Shown piece by piece: positions 29,000-46,172 of a DNA stretch of 64,000 nucleotides (its first letter is position 1; the number at the start of each line of letters is the position of its first letter). Source of the DNA: a virus (Duplodnaviria; Caudoviricetes). The notes beneath the pieces were generated by a model that saw only the letters and a program-made list of their open reading frames with translations, did no database searches and was not told the origin of the DNA. The translations under genes were made by a program, and so were the position numbers. The stretch is from IMG/VR virus record IMGVR_UViG_3300021400_000063; one strand, written 5' to 3'.

Positions 29000-29013
29000 A
29001 ACAATTTAATATA
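29000..29013 (+). promoter_or_regulatory. putative late promoter
   Basis: AACAATTTAATATA. Confidence 0.6.
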
Positions 29014-30032: not shown

Positions 30033-30091
30033 ATATAATAAATTCACACTGATCCTAGCTTTATGCTAGGATCTTTTCTTTTTTAGGCGTT

Positions 30092-30105
30092 GACAAACCT
30101 ATATA
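30092..30105 (+). promoter_or_regulatory. putative late promoter
   Basis: GACAAACCTATATA. Confidence 0.6.
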
Positions 30106-30125
30106 TTTATATAATGGAGTTTATT

Positions 30126-33100
30126 ATGGGTATTAATACAAACTCATTTGAAAATTATAAAAATACTGTTGAAGCATCTGAAAAAGGTGGTTTTTTAAGT
30201 AAATTAAAAGGCTTCGGATTAGATTCACTTGGTGGTCTTGACTCATTTATGGGAAAAGACATCATAAATGCAAATAAATTATTAAAATCTTTTAAAGGAT
30301 TTAATCTCTCTGATATTCTTTCGAATTTAGGAGGATTTTTCCAAAACTTAGCGCTTTCAGCATTAGATATGTTGAAAGATATGGGTATGGATGCCCTGAG
30401 ACAACTTCAAAATGCTTCTATAAACTTTGCATCAAATCTTGTAGAAGATTTGTATAATAATGTACGTTCGATGATGTATATTCCTGATAATGCTTTTGCT
30501 TTAACATTACAAGGTTTATATGAAGCTGGTGCAGATTTAGCATATAACGATCATTATATTCGTTCTTCAGCTTTACAAAGAGATTGGACTATAAGTTTAA
30601 AATTTATAGATGATCAATATGGTATAGATTATAATATTCGAGATTATAAAGATCTTGAAAAAGATTTAGCTATATGTGCTGAACATTCATGCGTTAATAA
30701 TTTGTACTATATATTCCGTAAAATATACGATCAATTAAATGATGTTCGATCTGATATAGTTGTATCAGAAACATCTTTAAAACCATATTCAAATACTATT
30801 AAAGGTTTCAAGCTTGTATCTTATGATGAAATACCTAATTGTGATAATCTTTATGTACAAATTGGTGAAGAAAAAACTAAAATTAATAAAGATACTGAAC
30901 AAGGTATAAACTTTATTCAAAATCATAAAGATATGGATTATTATACTGAAACTATAATCGATTATGAAGGTATAGCTAATGGTTTGTATTTAGGTTATAA
31001 CTATGAAACAATTGAAACTAAAAACGATGTTGAAGCTAAATATAATGCTTATTTAGAGAATGTTAAACTTGTAAAAAATATAGAACGTTTAATGTTAGTT
31101 TATTTTAAATCATTAATAGTTCATAGTTATACATATTTAAATGCTTCTTCTGTACAAAAATTCTTTTCTGATTTTGATACTGTTCTTTTACCTAAGTATT
31201 ATGGAAAAACTGATGATAAATATAATGGAACATACGCTTTTACACAAAATGATTGTTTAATAATGATGCCTGATTATAAAGGCAATGATGTTACTAAAAG
31301 TGATATGTATACCCAAGAATTATTAACTCAAAAAAATAATGAATATATCGCTGTATCAGGTGCTAGATCAGAAGCTTCTAAAGCTGCTATGGAAGCATTG
31401 GAAGCTAAAAATGCTGCTAAAACAACTACAGCTTCTGCAGCAGAAGCTGGTACCACTGGAGCTATAGCTAAAATTAAAGCATTTAGAGCAAATGCAATGG
31501 AAGCCGTAGCAAAAAATCAAAATGTTTCATATACAGCTAATATTAAGAATGGAATATCTAAAACACTTCAAAATAATTCTAACAGTTTATGGAATAGATC
31601 TGGAAGTGGAATTAATGCTAAACAAGATAGTAAACGTATTTCTTCTATGTATGATCGTGATGTTGTTAAAAAATATGAACTTGTTGGAAGTTTATCTGAT
31701 GCATTGGATGAGATAGATTTTTTAAATAAAGATACTGAATATATTGTTTTAAGAAATAAAAATATTAAACAAATTTATGCTCTTTTAGCTAATCCTACTA
31801 TTTATGGTAATAATAGAATGGTTAATGATTATTTCTATAAACGTTGTCAGATAAAAACAATGAATACTTTAAATCAATCATTAGCTAAGGCTGGAAGTAT
31901 TTTAGGTTCATCTTACGCTGTACAAGCGCTATTTGATCTCGAAAATGCTGTTGATTCATCAGCATATGTATATCTTAAGAAAGTAGAAAACTATCTTTTA
32001 AATCCTAAAGAACACTCATATTATGGTATGGACACTATGTTTAGTTCTGGCAATAATATGTGGACACAGTTTGGTGATTATTTTAAACAAGCATATTCCT
32101 GGGACGATTCTATAAGCGATGATCCTGAATTAGAATCTATTATTGAAAAACTTTCAGAAGTTTCAAATACAACATCTGACACTTCTTCAAAAACTAGTGT
32201 ATCTGAAATTGATCCTATAAAAGATTTAACTTCTGAAAATGGTGCTAATGGTGAAACTTATGCAGAAATATTAAATCAATTAGATTCTGAAAATACTGCA
32301 AAATTATATGTTGATAATGTTGTTAGATTTATGTCTGAAATTTCGATGTTGGATCTTAGAGATATGTTAGTTAAATATCTTACAGCTTTCTACAAATATA
32401 TGAAAGCTAGAGATTATGAACCTGATACATATTTCGAAACTCTTATTAAATCAATGTCTGGTATTGACGGAATTACACATTATGATGATTTAAATTCCAA
32501 AGTATTTAGTAAATCTACACATAAAACATTATTAGCTAATGGTAAATTCTTAGTATCTATATATGCTTTAAAGAATTCTTACAAATATTTCTTAGAGAAT
32601 GAAAAAGATACAAATAAAGAAGAACTTACTAAAATTTACAATCTTGTATTTGCTATGGGTTCAGCAGATATTCAAATGAGTGGAACTATAACAGGATTGT
32701 ACAAATTTGATAAAGAGCAATTAAATTCTCTTGTAAAAAGAAATTTCTTTACATCTATAGACCATCTTAAATCTATAAATGATAAAACTAAACCACTTAT
32801 TAAAACAGCTCCAAGATATAAAGATAATTTAACCAAATCATTTAACTATAAATTCGATTTACGTGGTATATCAGGTTATAGTTTAGATAATGATAGAATT
32901 TTATATGTACCAGAAAATAGTACTGGAGATTGGAATTCTATAGGTGTAAGTAATGATAAAGAAATTGGATCTTTCTTTTGTAAAAGTAATATAAATGGTG
33001 ATGGTAACGGAATTTATAGAAGAACTTATGAAGGAACTACTTTAAATAGAATTGATGTAGTTTCTAATTCTGGAACAAAAATCACAGATAGAGAATTCTT

Positions 33101-35531
33101 TGTAATTACATTTGACGATCATGGTGCTGTATATTTTGGTTTAAATGATATGGATACTAATAAAAACTCTATTTCAGAGACATTATATGTATACGATCAA
33201 ACTAATAACAGAATAATAGGTGTATCTGGTTTTACTGATAATCCTAAAGATTATTCATTTAAAATAGATGTATCACACAAATTATTAATTATAGCATCTA
33301 AAAAGAATAAAGGATGTTATTATACAACATTAAATACTACGACATGTTCTAGATTATCTAGTACAGGAAGTAATCATTATTTTGTAAAATTGGAAGATAA
33401 TTCTTTACTTGTTTGTCCAAAGGATTCAAAATCTGGAATAGGTTATTTTGATATCAGTGGTAATTATGTTAATACTTGTGATTTACCAGATAATGTTTCT
33501 GCTATAACTAGAGTTAAACCGGTTGTAACTGAAACAATTGTTAATGTTCAATCATCATCAACAGATTCTTCACAATCATCTTCTAGTAGTGGAGAGTCAA
33601 GTCAACCTATAATAACTTCTACACCTATGAATATTTATGGTGCTTTAATTAGTACTAATATTGGAGTTATTCATTTATTGGCTCTAGCACAAGTAGATAC
33701 AACCACAGGTGAAACTACAGGTTCTAAAACATTATCAATGGGTAAGACTTATTCATTTGTAAGTGGAAATAGTCCATGTTATGTTTATAATAACATGAAA
33801 GTTATAGGTGTTAAAGATAATTCTAAGTTTATATGTAAAACTATAGAAGCTAAAGAACCAATGACTATTACATCTACAAGTGTTTTATTATCAAGTGAAT
33901 TGTTTAAATTTGGTAATGAAATAGAAATTTTTAATCCATCATATCCTTCAGAAACTTATAATGTAGATTATATGTGTGATACTGATGATGGAATTTATAC
34001 AATCTTAACTAGAACTGATTCAGATACTAAAGAATTATATTTTATTCCTTATAAAAATGATACTGAAATAATGTATTTGATTCGTTCAGAAATAGCCAAT
34101 ACTGTTACTAATGTGGATGTAATAGATACTATTAATATTTCATCTTCTAAAAAACCAGTAATCATAATTTATCCAAATAAATCATTAGATTTCATTTCTA
34201 TCACAACAACATCTTCTTCTATAAGTCCTTCAATAGTTGATTCTTATTTTAAAGATATAGATGATGAAATACCTTCTGATGATACATTGATTGTAAAACA
34301 AAGCGATTATGATTGGGAAAATATATCTGTTCCAAATGATAATAACATTTATATTCAAAATAAAAATTATGGTGTTATTTTATTTAAGAATGGTGTATCG
34401 ATTCATAAATTAATGAATTATTCTAATTTAACAACTGGTGATATTACTAAAGCTGATTTATTATTTGATTATCAAATAGTTAAAGCTAAAAGTATTACAT
34501 TATTTGCAAATAAATCTTCTGGAAGCAAATATGTTAAAAATGGATATGGATTATTTAAATCTGTAAATGATGGTGTAAATTATCAATATGCCGATACTTC
34601 ATCATATCATGATGGTGATATTGGAAGCATGGCTTATGATAAACATCACAATTGTATCTATTTTGGAACTTATCGTGATAAAACAATTTTTAATTATGAT
34701 TTCCTAGCAACAATTGCTGCTTTTGATATAGATGCTTATATATCTCAATTATCATATTATGAACTTAGTAAACTAGCTAAAAATCTAATGGAATCTTCAT
34801 CAACAACAATTAATGAAGGAATTCTTGATTTATTATCTAGTAAAAATGAAGATTTATCTTTTACTTATACAATTGATGAATTATTAACTGATGTAATCGA
34901 TTTATCTCTAAATACTCAAGAAAGCTGTCAAACATCATTGATGAGTTCTACATTATTTACAGAGTTAACTAATTATAAAACTGCTACTGAATTATTTGAT
35001 GATGTTACAAGTGACAATTTTAATGATGATATGACAAAAGATTTTATCACTAGTTATCCTGGAGAAATATCTATTGAAAATGAATTATTTCCTACAGATG
35101 TAGAAGATTTTTCAATAGGAGATATTGATGATATCGATAATGATGGTGATATAGATCAAGATGATTTAAATTGGTATCAAGCATTATTAAATGGTGGAGA
35201 AATCGATACAAAACTATCATTAAACGATTGGTTTAATAATTTAGCTAATGGTGTATATGGTAATGGAATGGGTAGTGTTCTATCATTAAGATTAACATAT
35301 GATAAACGAATAAAATATTTTGCCACATTACGAGCTAATAAATCACATTTCTTAATAAGTGGTAAATCATTATCTTCTGATGAAGTTGATTCTGATGTAG
35401 AAGGTCCTAATTCTATTATCGACCCTGCAACAGATCCAGAATCTCCAGAATATAAATGGTATCATAATACCGATTTTGCTTCTAAAGATTTTGAAAATTC
35501 TGATGAAAATGGTGAATTCTCTTGGCAATAA
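30126..35531 (+). CDS. very large probable virion protein (helical N-half, beta-propeller-like Ser/Thr-rich C-half; tail/baseplate-associated)
   Basis: About 1800 aa; ATG at 30126 after GGAG; late promoter; beta-strand-rich repeats; DxDxDG Ca-binding motif near the C-terminus. Confidence 0.6.
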   Translation: MGINTNSFENYKNTVEASEKGGFLSKLKGFGLDSLGGLDSFMGKDIINANKLLKSFKGFNLSDILSNLGGFFQNLALSALDMLKDMGMDALRQLQNASINFASNLVEDLYNNVRSMMYIPDNAFALTLQGLYEAGADLAYNDHYIRSSALQRDWTISLKFIDDQYGIDYNIRDYKDLEKDLAICAEHSCVNNLYYIFRKIYDQLNDVRSDIVVSETSLKPYSNTIKGFKLVSYDEIPNCDNLYVQIGEEKTKINKDTEQGINFIQNHKDMDYYTETIIDYEGIANGLYLGYNYETIETKNDVEAKYNAYLENVKLVKNIERLMLVYFKSLIVHSYTYLNASSVQKFFSDFDTVLLPKYYGKTDDKYNGTYAFTQNDCLIMMPDYKGNDVTKSDMYTQELLTQKNNEYIAVSGARSEASKAAMEALEAKNAAKTTTASAAEAGTTGAIAKIKAFRANAMEAVAKNQNVSYTANIKNGISKTLQNNSNSLWNRSGSGINAKQDSKRISSMYDRDVVKKYELVGSLSDALDEIDFLNKDTEYIVLRNKNIKQIYALLANPTIYGNNRMVNDYFYKRCQIKTMNTLNQSLAKAGSILGSSYAVQALFDLENAVDSSAYVYLKKVENYLLNPKEHSYYGMDTMFSSGNNMWTQFGDYFKQAYSWDDSISDDPELESIIEKLSEVSNTTSDTSSKTSVSEIDPIKDLTSENGANGETYAEILNQLDSENTAKLYVDNVVRFMSEISMLDLRDMLVKYLTAFYKYMKARDYEPDTYFETLIKSMSGIDGITHYDDLNSKVFSKSTHKTLLANGKFLVSIYALKNSYKYFLENEKDTNKEELTKIYNLVFAMGSADIQMSGTITGLYKFDKEQLNSLVKRNFFTSIDHLKSINDKTKPLIKTAPRYKDNLTKSFNYKFDLRGISGYSLDNDRILYVPENSTGDWNSIGVSNDKEIGSFFCKSNINGDGNGIYRRTYEGTTLNRIDVVSNSGTKITDREFFVITFDDHGAVYFGLNDMDTNKNSISETLYVYDQTNNRIIGVSGFTDNPKDYSFKIDVSHKLLIIASKKNKGCYYTTLNTTTCSRLSSTGSNHYFVKLEDNSLLVCPKDSKSGIGYFDISGNYVNTCDLPDNVSAITRVKPVVTETIVNVQSSSTDSSQSSSSSGESSQPIITSTPMNIYGALISTNIGVIHLLALAQVDTTTGETTGSKTLSMGKTYSFVSGNSPCYVYNNMKVIGVKDNSKFICKTIEAKEPMTITSTSVLLSSELFKFGNEIEIFNPSYPSETYNVDYMCDTDDGIYTILTRTDSDTKELYFIPYKNDTEIMYLIRSEIANTVTNVDVIDTINISSSKKPVIIIYPNKSLDFISITTTSSSISPSIVDSYFKDIDDEIPSDDTLIVKQSDYDWENISVPNDNNIYIQNKNYGVILFKNGVSIHKLMNYSNLTTGDITKADLLFDYQIVKAKSITLFANKSSGSKYVKNGYGLFKSVNDGVNYQYADTSSYHDGDIGSMAYDKHHNCIYFGTYRDKTIFNYDFLATIAAFDIDAYISQLSYYELSKLAKNLMESSSTTINEGILDLLSSKNEDLSFTYTIDELLTDVIDLSLNTQESCQTSLMSSTLFTELTNYKTATELFDDVTSDNFNDDMTKDFITSYPGEISIENELFPTDVEDFSIGDIDDIDNDGDIDQDDLNWYQALLNGGEIDTKLSLNDWFNNLANGVYGNGMGSVLSLRLTYDKRIKYFATLRANKSHFLISGKSLSSDEVDSDVEGPNSIIDPATDPESPEYKWYHNTDFASKDFENSDENGEFSWQ

Positions 35532-35567: not shown

Positions 35568-36404
35568 TTATTCAGGTTTAATAATAGATTTGAAAATTTC
35601 GATATCTTCATCATAGAATGTATTATTAATAGTAATATTCATTCTAGAATGTTCAGCAATTTTAACAAATTCTTCCATAGCAGCTTTATTTGTGAAGAAA
35701 TACATCTTATTAGGAACTTTAGGATCGTTAACATTTATTGTTGGATCATCATGACGTCCAACTATATCTTTAATAAGAGACATATAAATTCCGCAGAGAA
35801 TGATATATTTATTGAATGCTGCACCGTTATAATTAAAATCATATTCATTGATTTTATTATTTTTCATAAACATACAGAAATGATTTATAGCCATTCTGTA
35901 TTCACCAGAACTTATAGTAGAATTTAAAGATGCTATTTCATCAGTCAATAAAGATAACATTTTATCTTCTGAAATAGTATTAGTTTTTGTTTTATTCAAG
36001 AATGGACAATCCTCTTTATCAAAAGAACCAAAGTTTACACCTGAGATCTGATCGATTTTAATTAAAAATGTTGAGACACCATCTATAAAATTTGGTTTAT
36101 TGTTATTTTGTGTAACATATAATGCACCATTATTGTTATATGCATAGAAATAGATGAAATCATCGCCTATGAATTTAGCTTTAGCTACGAATATTGGTTG
36201 ATTAAAACCGTTAACATATACTGAATACATTAATCGTTTATTTCTTGGTTTATTACCATTAAAATCTTCAATAGCATGTAACAAATCCATAATTGTATTG
36301 TTACCATCCATAAATTGAGCTGTTAATTCTGGATCATAAAGACTGAAAGATCGATCTTTCGGATCAATAATATCTGCTGATGTTATATAAAAATTTTGTA
36401 TCAT
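35568..36404 (-). CDS. hypothetical protein
   Basis: 278 aa; AAGGAG SD on the minus strand; late-type promoter upstream. Confidence 0.85.
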   Translation of the reverse strand: MIQNFYITSADIIDPKDRSFSLYDPELTAQFMDGNNTIMDLLHAIEDFNGNKPRNKRLMYSVYVNGFNQPIFVAKAKFIGDDFIYFYAYNNNGALYVTQNNNKPNFIDGVSTFLIKIDQISGVNFGSFDKEDCPFLNKTKTNTISEDKMLSLLTDEIASLNSTISSGEYRMAINHFCMFMKNNKINEYDFNYNGAAFNKYIILCGIYMSLIKDIVGRHDDPTINVNDPKVPNKMYFFTNKAAMEEFVKIAEHSRMNITINNTFYDEDIEIFKSIIKPE

Positions 36405-36435
36405 AGGAAATAACTCCTTAATTTAGTTTAGATTT

Positions 36436-36470
36436 TATATTAATATGTCGACCTATGACAAATTAATATA
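36436..36470. promoter_or_regulatory. back-to-back divergent late promoters
   Basis: GACATATTAATATA on the minus strand (36449-36436) and GACAAATTAATATA on the plus strand (36457-36470). Confidence 0.65.
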
Positions 36471-36494
36471 TTCTTTATAAGAAAGGAGTAAATT

Positions 36495-36950
36495 GTGAAT
36501 GAAAAAACTATTAAAAAGATTATTATTTGTATTATTGTTGGTTTTATTTGTGCTTGCACCTTGCTTGGCACAGGAATCGGAATTGGATACAGAATTGCAA
36601 CAAAATCATCAGATGGAAGAGCTTCAGAAACCATTGGAGACCTTAAATCTGACATTTCCACTCTTAAATCTGAAAAAGAACGACTTACAGACGAACGAGA
36701 TAAACTTATTTCCGAACTTGCAGTTTCCAACGGTAAACTCGAATCCATTGCAACCGAACTCAAACGATGTAGTGAAGACTATGCTCAACAATCAGCTGAA
36801 TACAGTAAACGAATTGAGGGAGCTAACCTTGACGTACTCGAATACAATAGAATCTACGTTGAAGGAGTCCTTGGAATCTGCGACACAATGGAAAGAACAA
36901 TCAATACTATTGCAGCAACATGTGGATACGATAACACAGAAATTAAATGA
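36495..36950 (+). CDS. N-terminal TM plus coiled-coil protein (i-spanin-like), overlapping 36499..37266 in another frame
   Basis: GTG start after AAGGAG; hydrophobic residues 9-31, then a heptad coiled coil. Confidence 0.55.
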   Translation: MNEKTIKKIIICIIVGFICACTLLGTGIGIGYRIATKSSDGRASETIGDLKSDISTLKSEKERLTDERDKLISELAVSNGKLESIATELKRCSEDYAQQSAEYSKRIEGANLDVLEYNRIYVEGVLGICDTMERTINTIAATCGYDNTEIK

Positions 36951-37266
36951 AGTAGTTGAAGAAAATAAGCAGATTGAAGCTGCTTTAATTTCTAATAACG
37001 AAGATGAACATAATACTAATTTATTATTTGGTGAGGCTTTAGAGAGAGCTGAATTAGCAGAAAAACAAGTAGTTAAATTAGAACGAGCATTCGACAATGC
37101 TATAATAGGTTTTAGTATTGGTGGTACTGGAATTGGTGTTGGTACAGGAATTATGACTGCTGGAATAGTTAATGGTGAAGTAGATAAAATAATAACTGGT
37201 GCAGGTATCGATTTAGCATCAGTTGGATTCTGGTTAATAGGCCATTATGTATTTAAAATTTTCTAA
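36499..37266 (+). CDS. signal peptide, coiled-coil and C-terminal hydrophobic protein (lysis/spanin-like candidate)
   Basis: MKKLLKRLLFVLLLVLFVLAPCLAQ signal; Gly-rich hydrophobic C-terminus. Confidence 0.7.
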   Translation: MKKLLKRLLFVLLLVLFVLAPCLAQESELDTELQQNHQMEELQKPLETLNLTFPLLNLKKNDLQTNEINLFPNLQFPTVNSNPLQPNSNDVVKTMLNNQLNTVNELRELTLTYSNTIESTLKESLESATQWKEQSILLQQHVDTITQKLNEVVEENKQIEAALISNNEDEHNTNLLFGEALERAELAEKQVVKLERAFDNAIIGFSIGGTGIGVGTGIMTAGIVNGEVDKIITGAGIDLASVGFWLIGHYVFKIF

Positions 37267-37360
37267 TAAAAAGGTGCGTTAAATCGCACCTTTTATGTTT
37301 ATTAAAAATAAAAATACTTATATATTTTTCACTTAATACGTATTAAGGAGGCCAACAAAT

Positions 37361-38662
37361 ATGGCAGAAGAAAATGTAAATTCAGTTGCAACTGGAAATG
37401 GAGAACCTGTAATTTCGCAGGCTAAGGCAAGACAGAAGGTAAGATTCGTAATTATTACCGAAGGTCAAGGTGGAGCTAACATTGGTATGACTCTTAAGAG
37501 TTGTTTACCAAATAATCCATACTTGATTGCCGTCAACACAAGTGATCAGGATCTTGATCAGTTGAATCTTCCTGATGCTCAGAAATTCAAAATCGGAGGT
37601 GCTAATGCTGATGGTGCTGGTAAAAACAGAAACCGTGCAAAAGCATACTTCAAAGGATATTCTGCAGATTTCCAGGGACAGAAATTCGATGCTCTTCAGA
37701 CATTTGTAGCTTATTATGAAGAAGTACTGTTTCATCCTGAAGTACAGACAATCATTATCAACTGTTTCTCAGCTGATGGTGGTACTGGTTCTGGAATTGG
37801 ACCTATGTTAACAACTTATCTTACTAACTATGTTAATAAGGCTGAGAAGTTCTCATACAATGGAAAGGAATATGTTATTGATGATCTCACCAATACGGTT
37901 CCACGTCCAGTTGTAATTGGTATCGTTCCAAAATGTTCTGTATCAGCAGGTCAGCAGAATCTTCAGAATACAATTGAATGTTTCGTTGACATCCAGAATG
38001 CAATTGATAAGGGATTAGCTAACTTCTTCATCGCTGATAACAATTTACCTTCATCAGTTAAATACACAAATACTGATGAAATGTATCGTATCATCAATGC
38101 AAGAATTGCTATGCCTATTCTCAAATTCCTTGGAATTGAAATGAACTCATCATTGAAATGTATGGATCTTCAGGATAAAGTAAACACACTTCGTATTCCT
38201 GGATGTTCAGCATTCCTTTCAATCAGCAATGAAAACAAATTCCAGTTCACAATTCCACAGGGTCAGTCTTGTAAACGTATTGTAGAAATGCTTAAGTTTA
38301 CTGAAGATGGTGCAGAAGAAAAAGCTGCTAAGCAGATCCGCACAAATTATGACATTATGTCTCGTGACATCATGTCAGTATTCTTTGAACTTGATAAAAT
38401 GAGTATTGATGGAGTAGATTCTATTTCTAAAGAACTCATTGAAGAATCTATGATTGGATTCTTTGGATTCACTTCATTGAATGCTGTGGTTGAAGATCTT
38501 CGTGCAAATCTTCGTCGTTTGACAGAATCAAATGAAAAGAAAGCAGAAGTTCTTAAATCTGAATCAGTAGGTTTCTCTTCTGTAAAAGAAGATGCTGCTG
38601 CACTTCAGGATGCTTTCGGGGCAAAGACTATGTCTAATGAACAGCTTGCTGATCTGTTCTAA
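37361..38662 (+). CDS. phuZ: tubulin/FtsZ-family GTPase (PhuZ-like)
   Basis: GQGGANIG, 'NTS..D', 'GAGKN', signature DGGTGSG, 'DN', 'IN'. Confidence 0.88.
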   Translation: MAEENVNSVATGNGEPVISQAKARQKVRFVIITEGQGGANIGMTLKSCLPNNPYLIAVNTSDQDLDQLNLPDAQKFKIGGANADGAGKNRNRAKAYFKGYSADFQGQKFDALQTFVAYYEEVLFHPEVQTIIINCFSADGGTGSGIGPMLTTYLTNYVNKAEKFSYNGKEYVIDDLTNTVPRPVVIGIVPKCSVSAGQQNLQNTIECFVDIQNAIDKGLANFFIADNNLPSSVKYTNTDEMYRIINARIAMPILKFLGIEMNSSLKCMDLQDKVNTLRIPGCSAFLSISNENKFQFTIPQGQSCKRIVEMLKFTEDGAEEKAAKQIRTNYDIMSRDIMSVFFELDKMSIDGVDSISKELIEESMIGFFGFTSLNAVVEDLRANLRRLTESNEKKAEVLKSESVGFSSVKEDAAALQDAFGAKTMSNEQLADLF

Positions 38663-39156: not shown

Positions 39157-39170
39157 AACATTATTATATA
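39157..39170 (+). promoter_or_regulatory. putative late promoter
   Basis: AACATTATTATATA. Confidence 0.6.
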
Positions 39171-44307: not shown

Positions 44308-44321
44308 GACATTTTAATATA
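44308..44321 (+). promoter_or_regulatory. putative late promoter
   Basis: GACATTTTAATATA. Confidence 0.65.
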
Positions 44322-46158: not shown

Positions 46159-46172
46159 GACAAATTTATATA
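46159..46172 (+). promoter_or_regulatory. putative late promoter
   Basis: GACAAATTTATATA. Confidence 0.65.

What the first reader, a model, noticed from the sequence alone, without database searches (positions are those of the whole stretch)
36483..37266. Dual-frame locus: two envelope coiled-coil proteins start 4 nt apart from one RBS (unusual spanin-like pair)
Seen: AAGGAG is followed by GTG (36495) and ATG (36499). Both frames stay open for 452 nt of overlap, both encode an N-terminal hydrophobic segment from the same bases followed by coiled coil, and the overlap looks less AT-rich than its neighbours. The longer protein has a signal peptide (with Cys in LAPC) and a C-terminal hydrophobic region. 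The locus has a late promoter and its own terminator. Known: Rz/Rz1 spanins overlap in different frames, but usually with the small lipoprotein gene at the 3' end of Rz. Inference: a non-canonical two-component membrane-fusion/lysis module with co-initiated, stoichiometry-coupled translation. If it is a spanin pair, the host is diderm (a spirochaete-like host is a guess).
Basis: partly seen in the sequence, partly recalled or inferred. Interest (0 to 1): 0.7.

Follow-up and report, generated by a model that had tools for sequence, protein, structure and literature searches.

The report
Two-frame lysis gene pair, one start site
One stretch of this giant gut-phage genome encodes two different envelope proteins in two reading frames that start four bases apart. 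The arrangement is kept across very distant relatives, where it sits next to the cell-wall-cutting gene of Treponema prophages, so it is probably an undescribed spanin-like lysis module.

Summary
AAGGAG (36483-36488) is followed by GTG 36495 (frame A, 151 aa) and ATG 36499 (frame B, 255 aa, +1 frame), and the two frames overlap for 452 nt.

This is not chance. Given protein A and the phage's codon usage, frame B stays open with p about 1e-6. All 12 jumbo-clade loci (A identity down to about 50%) keep GTGRATG and both frames. Seven remote loci (B about 25% identical) do the same, and four of them lie in Treponema genomes. Each frame is also kept open where a frameshift fusion would not need it.

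- **A:** N-terminal membrane helix plus a confident helical hairpin.
- **B:** cleavable signal peptide, disordered linker, long helix, and a glycine-zipper C-terminal hairpin ending in aromatic residues. It has no canonical lipobox.

In distant relatives the pair directly follows an Amidase_2 endolysin. A sister version in Treponema pairs a true lipoprotein with a protein anchored by a C-terminal membrane helix.

Best reading: a real, co-initiated dual-coding pair (about 0.9) acting late in lysis like a spanin (about 0.5). No Pfam, PHROG, PDB or GenBank-phage match was found. Translation, localisation and function are untested. The scan had already noted this same stretch in an overlapping window.

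The parts
36434..36470 (.). Invariant 37-nt intergenic block holding two divergent promoter-like motifs, GACA-N6-TAT: on the - strand at 36437-36449 and on the + strand at 36457-36469.
   Evidence: The block is identical in 10 jumbo-clade loci whose coding regions have diverged to about 50% aa identity. It resembles the AR9 late promoter consensus AACA-(6N)-TA/G (PMC5312081). RACAWWWTWATAT occurs 6 times in the window against 1.3 expected, always 31-58 nt upstream of an ORF start, including a virion structural gene.
36483..36488 (+). Shared Shine-Dalgarno AAGGAG, 6 nt before the GTG of A and 10 nt before the ATG of B.
   Evidence: One SD-like element precedes the paired starts in all 19 type-1 loci.
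36495..36950 (+). Gene A, 151 aa, GTG start. Basic N-terminus, membrane helix (about residues 9-31), linker, helix 41-109, turn, helix 114-142. An i-spanin-like type II membrane protein.
   Evidence: Codon-usage score favours this frame over 36495 to about 36900. Substitutions fall mainly on A's wobble positions at A codons 51-90. GTG is invariant in 12/12 jumbo-clade loci. AF2 mean pLDDT is 81, above 90 for residues 50-140. Hydrophobicity. Remote A homologues: hhalign 92%, E 6.5e-7.
36499..37266 (+). Gene B, 255 aa, ATG start, +1 frame relative to A.
   Evidence: The frame is open in all loci. The full-length architecture is shared by remote homologues P0074 and P0075, aligned over residues 1-253. 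Codon usage and wobble pattern favour this frame from about 36900 onward.
36499..36570 (+). B signal peptide (residues 1-24). Basic n-region, Leu-rich core, conserved C-x-[AGS] then Q, a signal peptidase I type site.
   Evidence: C22 and Q25 are invariant in 14 B sequences. Remote homologues have SP-like N-termini ending in SA or LA and no lipobox Cys.
36571..36759 (+). B linker (residues 25-87), rich in N, Q, L, P and T and predicted disordered. It overlies A's membrane helix, linker and first helix.
   Evidence: AF2 pLDDT is below 50. B second-codon positions vary freely here. The frame is still kept open: P = 5e-5 to 2e-3.
36760..37089 (+). B long helix (residues 88-197), carrying the family motif ALISNNEDEHNTNLL.
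   Evidence: The motif region is homologous to the ERLQENNEDLAAAY region of the Treponema proteins.
36781..36950 (+). The most constrained dual-coding stretch. A's second helix and B's helix start are encoded together here.
   Evidence: Only 10 substitutions in 180 nt against L001. A's synonymous sites are 0.80-1.00 identical in distant pairs, against 0.55-0.70 in control genes.
37099..37263 (+). B C-terminal glycine-zipper helical hairpin ending GHYVFKIF. Marginally hydrophobic.
   Evidence: Helices 215-225 and 228-254. This is the most conserved family domain: hhalign 99%, E 3.5e-18 against Treponema homologues. Best 19-mer is about +3 to +4 kcal/mol, against -1 to -5 for true TMDs.
37269..37294 (+). 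Intrinsic terminator: 10-bp stem, 5 G-C pairs, followed by a T-run.
   Evidence: Conserved in L001.

Best explanation
36495-37266 is a genuine dual-coding locus. One late mRNA with one Shine-Dalgarno presents two start codons four bases apart. Ribosomes that start at GTG 36495 make protein A. Ribosomes that start at ATG 36499 make protein B in the +1 frame.

- **A** is inserted in the cytoplasmic membrane by its N-terminal helix. Its helical hairpin lies outside the cytoplasm.
- **B** is exported by a cleavable signal peptide. It carries a flexible linker, a roughly 110-residue helix and a glycine-zipper C-terminal hairpin.

The pair belongs to an unnamed family whose other members sit at the end of lysis cassettes of Treponema prophages. 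The most likely function is therefore the last step of lysis in a double-membraned host. After the endolysin has cut the wall, A (inner membrane) and B together bridge and disrupt the envelope, as spanins do. B would be held in or at the outer membrane by its weakly hydrophobic hairpin instead of a lipid anchor.

Shown: both frames are maintained by selection, the shared start architecture is conserved, and the family is linked to endolysin genes. Inferred: translation of both products, their topology, their binding to each other, outer-membrane targeting of B, and the spanin mechanism.

My odds: real dual coding about 0.9, lysis role about 0.6, spanin-type envelope bridging about 0.45-0.5. 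The confidence figure below applies to the statement as a whole.
For: 1. **Chance openness is excluded.** P(B open | A) is 1.2e-6 to 1.5e-4 in 11 jumbo-clade loci. In 5 remote loci it is 1e-4 to 2e-8 in both directions.
2. **Each frame is open where a fusion would not need it.** B over A codons 3-95: 5e-5 to 2e-3. A over B codons 96 to the end: 5e-6 to 6e-4.
3. **Codon choice shifts.** 11 of 12 Leu codons in A are CTT or CTC, which cannot create +1 stops. All 8 in the B-only part are TTA.
4. **The start architecture is conserved.** RTG-R-ATG behind one SD occurs in 17 loci and ATGTG in 2.
5. **Selection switches frame along the locus.** A's wobble positions vary most at codons 51-90 and B's at codons 111-151. 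A's synonymous sites are frozen there: 0.80-1.00 against 0.55-0.70 in controls.
6. **B's full architecture recurs in remote homologues**, and A's does too.
7. **Lysis context.** An Amidase_2 endolysin lies directly upstream in L015. In L017 it overlaps A's start by 8 nt. L019 reads endolysin, then a two-TM small protein, then the pair. L043 shows the same link for the sister type. A prophage integrase lies just beyond in L017 and L018.
8. **Sister type in Treponema, same frame relation.** A' is a true lipoprotein. B' is homologous to B (97.9%, E 4.7e-13) and has a real C-terminal TMD. Each pair therefore has exactly one strong inner-membrane anchor.
9. **Structure.** A folds confidently as TM helix plus helical hairpin, the layout described for i-spanins (PMC6139136).
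10. **Timing.** A late-type promoter motif is shared with a virion structural gene.
Against: - No protein-level evidence exists for either product.
- B lacks the lipoprotein signal that defines o- and u-spanins.
- Outer-membrane targeting of B's hairpin is conjecture. By homology with B', it could equally sit in the inner membrane, which would leave type 1 without an outer-membrane partner.
- In the window the locus is a stand-alone unit between an unknown gene and a tubulin-like gene. No endolysin was recognised nearby, and none of the Amidase_2 or SLT type was found in the 276-kb relative.
- The host of the jumbo phage is unknown, and its GC (29%) is well below that of the Treponema loci (41-49%).
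- Similarity to a known spanin family is only a weak PHROG hit (phrog_739, E 0.005).
- A's last 50 residues show little constraint of their own beyond an open frame.
Confidence: 0.55

Rival explanations
1. Both proteins are real and co-translated, but they are not spanin-like. They form some other membrane module. Options are a lysis-timing pair (holin/antiholin-like), a superinfection-exclusion or envelope-remodelling pair, or in the jumbo phage a membrane system unrelated to lysis.
For: B has no lipobox. By homology with B' its C-terminus may be an inner-membrane anchor. In the window the locus is not next to any recognised lysis gene. In L017 and L018 the pair borders the integrase, a place where lysogenic-conversion genes also sit.
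Against: The pair is translationally coupled to, or directly follows, the endolysin gene in four independent loci. Separate small multi-TM holin candidates exist in L018 and L019. The sister type has the two defining spanin signals, a lipoprotein and an inner-membrane protein. The promoter is of late type.
Confidence: 0.27
2. Two ordinary tandem genes, as several public gene calls have it: A (151 aa) followed by a short B of about 107-120 aa starting at an internal GTG or TTG near 36910-36922. The long upstream extension of frame B would be untranslated.
For: Gene callers on public contigs call A plus a 107-120 aa product. Codon usage favours frame B only from about 36900. B residues 25-87 are weakly constrained.
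Against: Frame B stays open upstream with P = 5e-5 to 2e-3 per locus in 10 loci and in all 7 remote loci. The ATG 4 nt after A's start is invariant. The signal-peptide motif (C22, Q25) is conserved better than A's residues there. Remote homologues align with B from residue 1, with the same signal peptide plus linker layout. No SD precedes the internal starts.
Confidence: 0.08
3. A single protein made by a +1 frameshift (programmed or a sequencing error). It would read from A's N-terminal half into B's C-terminal half.
For: Selection looks A-like upstream and B-like downstream of about 36800-36900.
Against: The same two frames occur without any indel in 19 independent assemblies. B upstream and A downstream of any shift site are both kept open against chance. 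A always stops at the same homologous TGA. Read by eye from the sequence, frame A contains no AGG codon.
Confidence: 0.04
4. Only one frame is translated. The other is open because of composition, since coiled-coil codons are poor in stop-forming triplets.
For: Antisense frames are also unusually open here: 107 and 101 aa on the - strand. GC is locally raised.
Against: The probabilities were computed conditional on the actual protein sequence and on codon usage, and are 1e-4 to 1e-8. The third sense frame has 17-24 stops. Both frames give conserved, sensible membrane proteins across about 25% identity. The antisense ORFs are not conserved in length.
Confidence: 0.03

Closest known systems
Two-component spanins Rz/Rz1 of lambda (embedded) and LysB/LysC of P2 (overlapped) (Kongari et al. 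2018, PMC6139136)
   Same: Two envelope proteins are encoded in overlapping frames, with the second gene in the +1 frame of the first. One partner is a protein of about 150 aa with an N-terminal membrane helix and an external helical, coiled-coil hairpin. In distant relatives the pair sits at the end of the lysis cassette next to the endolysin. Gene callers miss one partner.
   Different: - The second gene starts 4 nt after the first rather than at about 0.4-0.5 of its length, shares its ribosome-binding site, spans all of it and runs 316 nt beyond.
- B is 255 aa rather than 40-130 aa and has no lipobox.
- B carries a glycine-zipper C-terminal hairpin.
- There is no significant sequence similarity to known spanin families (phrog_739, E 0.005).
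Unimolecular spanin gp11 of phage T1 (PMC6139136)
   Same: Like gp11, B has an N-terminal export signal, a long periplasmic part and a C-terminal hydrophobic anchor.
   Different: gp11's N-terminal signal is a lipoprotein signal, its C-terminus is a true TMD and its periplasmic part is mainly beta. B has a signal peptidase I type site, a marginally hydrophobic Gly-rich hairpin and a helical body. B also always comes with partner A.
   Same: Two start codons a few bases apart behind one ribosome-binding site give two membrane proteins in a fixed ratio from one lysis gene.
   Different: The lambda starts are in the same frame and give near-identical proteins. Here the starts are in different frames and give unrelated proteins.
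Sister pair found here in Treponema genomes (type 2; loci L040, L042-L044, L046; the B' gene alone was identified in L039 and L045)
   Same: Same frame relation (B' = A' + 1), near-coincident starts (4-80 nt apart), a homologous B coiled-coil motif (hhalign 97.9%) and an endolysin directly upstream in L043.
   Different: A' is a lipoprotein with a canonical lipobox instead of a membrane-helix protein. B' ends in one strongly hydrophobic TMD with a basic tail instead of the glycine-zipper hairpin. B' is also shorter (150-177 aa).

Membership tests
Two-component spanin (i-spanin + o-spanin) | i-spanin: N-terminal transmembrane domain (type II) with a periplasmic coiled-coil or helical domain. 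| tested here: met
   A has a basic N-terminus, a TM 19-mer of about -2.4 kcal/mol (KD 2.54) and helices 41-109 and 114-142 at pLDDT above 90. Topology is inferred, not measured.
Two-component spanin (i-spanin + o-spanin) | o-spanin: outer-membrane lipoprotein signal, lipobox [LVI][ASTVI][GAS]C. | tested here: not met
   In B the residue before the conserved Cys is P, F, Y or V. Treponema homologues (P0075, L017, L019) have no lipobox Cys. The conserved C-x-[AGS]-Q fits signal peptidase I. No SignalP run was available.
Two-component spanin (i-spanin + o-spanin) | The genes are adjacent, overlapped or embedded, with the second in another frame of the first. | tested here: met
   B is in the +1 frame of A and overlaps it by 452 nt. 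The geometry, a co-start with B extending beyond A, matches none of the three described classes (PMC6139136).
Two-component spanin (i-spanin + o-spanin) | Located in a lysis cassette with holin and endolysin. | tested here: inconclusive
   Not met in the window, where the neighbours are unknown proteins and a tubulin-like gene. Met in the remote homologues L015, L017, L019 and L043.
Two-component spanin (i-spanin + o-spanin) | The host has an outer membrane. | tested here: inconclusive
   The jumbo phage's host is unknown. The only cellular genomes found to carry family members are Treponema MAGs, but the pattern scan was tuned to that subgroup. The search for spacer-like matches gave only chance-level hits.
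Two-component spanin (i-spanin + o-spanin) | Required for outer-membrane disruption, or complements an Rz/Rz1 defect. | not testable with these tools
   This needs genetics.
Two-component spanin (i-spanin + o-spanin) | Sequence membership in a known spanin family. | tested here: not met
   The best hit is phrog_739 'Rz-like spanin', E 0.0049, for A only. Pfam, PDB and BFVD gave nothing significant.
Unimolecular spanin (T1 gp11 type) | [quoted passage not shown] | tested here: not met
   B has no lipobox. Its C-terminal segments are only marginally hydrophobic, about +3 to +4 kcal/mol.
Programmed +1 frameshift gene | Only the zero frame upstream and the +1 frame downstream of a shift site need to be open. 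| tested here: not met
   Both of the 'unneeded' halves are kept open, with P = 5e-5 to 2e-3 and 5e-6 to 6e-4. A stops at the same site in all loci.
Same-frame dual-start lysis gene (lambda S type) | Two in-frame starts that give nested products. | tested here: not met
   The starts are 4 nt apart (2 nt in L016 and L037), so they are out of frame.

The most novel reading that the evidence does not exclude
This is a previously unrecognised spanin system of spirochaete phages. Its two subunits are translated from one ribosome-binding site in two frames over the whole length of the smaller gene. The outer-membrane subunit is not a lipoprotein and is held instead by a glycine-zipper helical hairpin. 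During evolution the two anchors have been swapped between the frames: in type 1, A is in the inner membrane and B in the outer; in type 2, A' is a lipoprotein in the outer membrane and B' is in the inner. It would also mark this AR9-like jumbo phage as a phage of a spirochaete.
Probability: 0.35. Interest if true: 0.88.

Novelty: new variant of a known kind. Interest (0 to 1): 0.78.

Why it matters
Long same-strand gene overlaps that are provably maintained by selection are rare in DNA phages. One in which both genes start from the same ribosome-binding site, four bases apart, and stay superimposed for about 150 codons across relatives with only about 25% identity is an extreme and clean case. 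It can serve studies of how two proteins share one sequence and how start-codon choice sets their ratio.

Biologically it would give spirochaete phages their first candidate for the envelope-disruption step of lysis, and with a subunit that breaks the rule that this step needs a lipoprotein. That rule underlies current spanin-finding pipelines, so such pairs are invisible to them. Public annotations call only one of the two genes, as 'hypothetical'.

The locus also provides a host clue for an uncultivated jumbo phage of ruminant and pig guts.

Tried and rejected
- **Complex prediction:** A 36-151 with B 84-202 gave no verdict (score 0.26, below the 0.32 mark). It is not evidence either way.
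- **Structure and sequence libraries:** Foldseek of the A model against PDB and BFVD gave nothing at E <= 0.001, only generic helical bundles. PDB sequence profiles for A and B hit only generic coiled coils. Pfam and PHROGs gave no family for A, B or their remote homologues. The ESM Atlas found only the protein's own cluster.
- **GenBank phages:** blastn and tblastn against 50,697 records found no match.
- **JGI collections:** the viral and metagenome collections hold only one relative, the 276-kb contig.
- **Window genome:** no whole genome is held for the window.
- **Broad family alignment A4:** too diverse for locus scanning.
- **Endolysin in the 276-kb relative:** Amidase_2 and SLT were not found, so the jumbo phage's own endolysin remains unidentified.
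- **Host via spacer-like matches:** 20 kb of the window against 218 Treponemataceae genomes gave only 27-42-nt matches at chance-level E-values, and none sat in a repeat array.
- **RNA evidence:** contigs of two bovine metatranscriptome runs from one study cover about 36513-37264 at 90-95% likeness. Contigs in RNA libraries do not prove transcription or show ends.
- **TGA read as Trp:** this would add only 8 codons to A (read from the sequence), so an alternative code is not needed.
- **C-terminal aromatic residues of B as a beta-barrel sorting signal:** the alternating pattern is absent. This is my own reading.
Full report
**1. What is in the sequence**

AAGGAG (36483-36488) is followed after 6 nt by GTG 36495 and after 10 nt by ATG 36499.
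- Frame A runs 36495-36950 (151 aa, TGA stop).
- Frame B, the +1 frame, runs 36499-37266 (255 aa).
- A strong terminator follows at 37269-37294.
- GC rises to 0.39-0.405 inside the overlap, from 0.26-0.29 upstream.

**2. Is the double open frame chance?**

I trained codon usage on 30 long ORFs of the window (28.7% GC). An exact dynamic-programming calculation then gives the probability that the +1 frame has no stop, given A's amino-acid sequence and free synonymous codon choice. It is 1.2e-6 for the window and 1.2e-6 to 1.5e-4 for ten relatives.

In the other genes the +1 frame has a stop every 16 codons on average, and the longest open run is 88 codons. The third sense frame of the locus has 17-24 stops.

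Codon choice shows how the frame is kept open. Of the 12 Leu codons in A, 11 are CTT or CTC, which cannot make a +1 stop. All 8 Leu codons in the B-only part are TTA, the genome's favourite.

**3. Close and middle-distance relatives**

Protein searches found many homologues of both frames. A is 146-154 aa and B is 250-258 aa, and different contigs have one or the other called. I fetched DNA for 11 further loci. A identity falls to about 50% and nucleotide identity to 67%. In every locus:
- one AGGAG-type SD is followed by GTG-R-ATG;
- A ends at the same TGA;
- B is open throughout.

Two loci are exceptions only through incompleteness. L003 runs off its contig. In L006 the tail of B is replaced by a DNA-methylase fragment.

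**4. Which frame is under selection where?**

The codon-usage score favours A from 36495 to about 36900 and B from about 36915 onward. Across ten sequences the pattern is as follows:
- At A codons 51-90, variation is greatest at A's third positions, so A is the constrained frame.
- At codons 111-151, variation is greatest at B's third positions, so B is the constrained frame.
- Overall diversity is lowest at 36781-36950.

In distant pairs, A's synonymous sites at codons 101-151 are 0.80-1.00 identical. The same measure is 0.55-0.70 in the B-only region, the upstream gene and the tubulin-like gene.

This pattern could suggest a frameshift fusion of A's front to B's back. That model does not require B to be open upstream or A to be open downstream, yet both are:
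- B open over A codons 3-95: P = 5e-5 to 2e-3.
- A open over B codons 96 to the end: P = 5e-6 to 6e-4.

There are no indels among independent assemblies. The fusion model and the 'A plus short B' gene model are therefore unlikely.

**5. The proteins**

*Protein A.* It has a basic N-terminus and a strongly hydrophobic helix, then a linker. A confident helical hairpin follows, with helices 41-109 and 114-142 at pLDDT above 90.

*Protein B.* The layout along the chain is:
- a classical signal peptide, in which C22 and Q25 are invariant (motif C-x-[AGS]-Q);
- a predicted disordered linker rich in N, Q, L, P and T (residues 25-87);
- a helix of about 110 residues carrying the motif ALISNNEDEHNTNLL;
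- a Gly-rich helical hairpin ending GHYVFKIF.

The residue before the Cys is P, F, Y or V, so this is not a canonical lipobox as given in PMC6139136. B's C-terminal segments are only marginally hydrophobic. The scale values used there were recalled from Hessa et al. 2005.

**6. A deep family, and its context**

A profile search of 1.8 billion representative proteins found remote full-length homologues of B (P0074, P0075 and others, about 25% identity). They share the same layout and a C-terminal W..GHY.F.WW motif. The hhalign comparison gives 99%, E 3.5e-18.

Their DNA shows the same two-frame pair:
- ATGAATG, with the two starts 4 nt apart, in L015, L017, L018, L019 and L038;
- ATGTG, with the two starts 2 nt apart and the same frame relation, in L016 and L037.

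Chance probabilities in these loci are 1e-4 to 2e-8 in both directions. The remote A proteins are also TM plus coiled coil and match the jumbo-clade A profile (92%, E 6.5e-7).

L017 and L018 are contigs of Treponema MAGs. Among 218 Treponemataceae genomes, at least four carry this type. In a 401-genome sample of the whole phylum only the centre genome did.

The genomic context is a lysis cassette:
- An Amidase_2 endolysin (Pfam E 5e-18 to 1e-22; phrog_9611) lies directly upstream in L015.
- In L017 the endolysin gene overlaps A's start by 8 nt.
- In L019 the order is endolysin, a 110-aa two-TM protein, then the pair.
- Integrases follow on the other strand in L017 and L018.

**7. A sister type**

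Other Treponema genomes carry a shorter pair with the same frame relation and starts 4-80 nt apart.
- A' is a lipoprotein with a canonical lipobox (..FSC, ..YGC, ..GGC, ..IGC, ..SAC) and a coiled coil.
- B' has a signal peptide and a coiled coil with the same ERMQERDEDLA.AY motif (hhalign to type-1 B 97.9%, E 4.7e-13). It ends in one strongly hydrophobic C-terminal TMD with a basic tail.
- A' and A are weakly related (79.5%, E 1.5e-5).
- In L043 an amidase-type endolysin ends in the start of A'.

This type therefore has the two localisation signals that define a two-component spanin. Each type has exactly one strong inner-membrane anchor: A in type 1 and B' in type 2. I read this, as inference, as an anchor swap that keeps one partner per membrane. 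The jumbo-phage B links to B' only through the Treponema type-1 proteins; the direct comparison is not significant.

**8. Expression signals in the window**

The intergenic block 36434-36470 is invariant in ten jumbo-clade loci. It contains two divergent GACA-N6-TAT motifs, close to the AR9 late promoter consensus AACA-(6N)-TA/G (PMC5312081).

RACAWWWTWATAT occurs six times in the window against 1.3 expected, and 0 of 100 shuffles reached six. Each occurrence lies 31-58 nt upstream of an ORF start, including a virion structural gene. A late, monocistronic, dual-coding transcript is therefore likely. Contigs from RNA libraries cover the locus but prove nothing about ends.

**9. Verdict**

The locus is a real dual-coding gene pair with a conserved shared start site, at about 0.9. 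Its family is tied to phage lysis cassettes of Treponema. I hold a spanin-like last-step lysis role at about 0.5, and another membrane function at about 0.27.

It is not a member of any described spanin family. The lipoprotein criterion fails for B, and no significant sequence or fold match exists. It is absent from 50,697 GenBank phage records. Public annotation shows only one partner, labelled 'hypothetical'.

I class it as a new variant of a known kind, overlapping envelope-lysis genes. The gene geometry and the B subunit have no described counterpart that I could find.

The same stretch had been flagged once before by this scan, from an overlapping window.

Noticed in passing
L039, L040, L042-L046 (Treponemataceae genomes G538, G454, G542, G606, G541, G440, G442): A second kind of fully overlapping pair with the same frame relation. 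It joins a lipoprotein with a coiled coil (113-136 aa) to a protein with signal peptide, coiled coil and C-terminal TMD (150-177 aa). In L043 it lies directly after an amidase-type endolysin. It looks like an unannotated two-component spanin with the lipoprotein gene at the 5' end.
   Followed up: partly
window 29000-29012, 36437-36449(-), 36457-36469, 39157-39169, 44308-44320, 46159-46171: Promoter-like motif RACA-N6-TAT, 31-58 nt upstream of six ORF starts (6 found against 1.3 expected). It resembles the AR9 late promoter consensus.
   Followed up: partly
window 37361-38662: A 433-aa tubulin/PhuZ-like protein (GGTGSG motif). The family hits are weak (Pfam Tubulin E 2e-4; phrog_4733 PhuZ E 4e-4). 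It is 98% identical in the 276-kb relative, and RNA-library contig depth is much higher here than over the A/B locus.
   Followed up: no
L006:785-1023: In one public contig the C-terminal third of B is replaced, in frame, by a DNA (cytosine) methylase fragment, and a methylase gene follows. A is intact. This is either a real rearrangement or a chimeric assembly.
   Followed up: no
window 36440-36763(-) and 36792-37097(-): Antisense ORFs of 107 and 101 aa lie over the dual-coding stretch. Similar ones of varying length (56-127 aa) occur in relatives. They are probably a by-product of stop-poor codon choice rather than genes.
   Followed up: partly
L018:3376-4590: A group II intron-type reverse transcriptase sits just upstream of the small membrane protein and the A/B pair in a Treponema prophage. 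It may interrupt the lysis cassette.
   Followed up: no
L016 (Logan SRR22936630 contig, 32 kb): A phage-like contig carrying the pair also encodes ThyX, a eukaryotic-type topoisomerase I (PF01028) and a flagellin.
   Followed up: no
window 30090-35531 and 35568-36404(-): An 1813-aa protein and a divergently transcribed 278-aa protein flank the locus. They have no Pfam or PHROG family, but both are conserved with the pair in all longer relatives.
   Followed up: no
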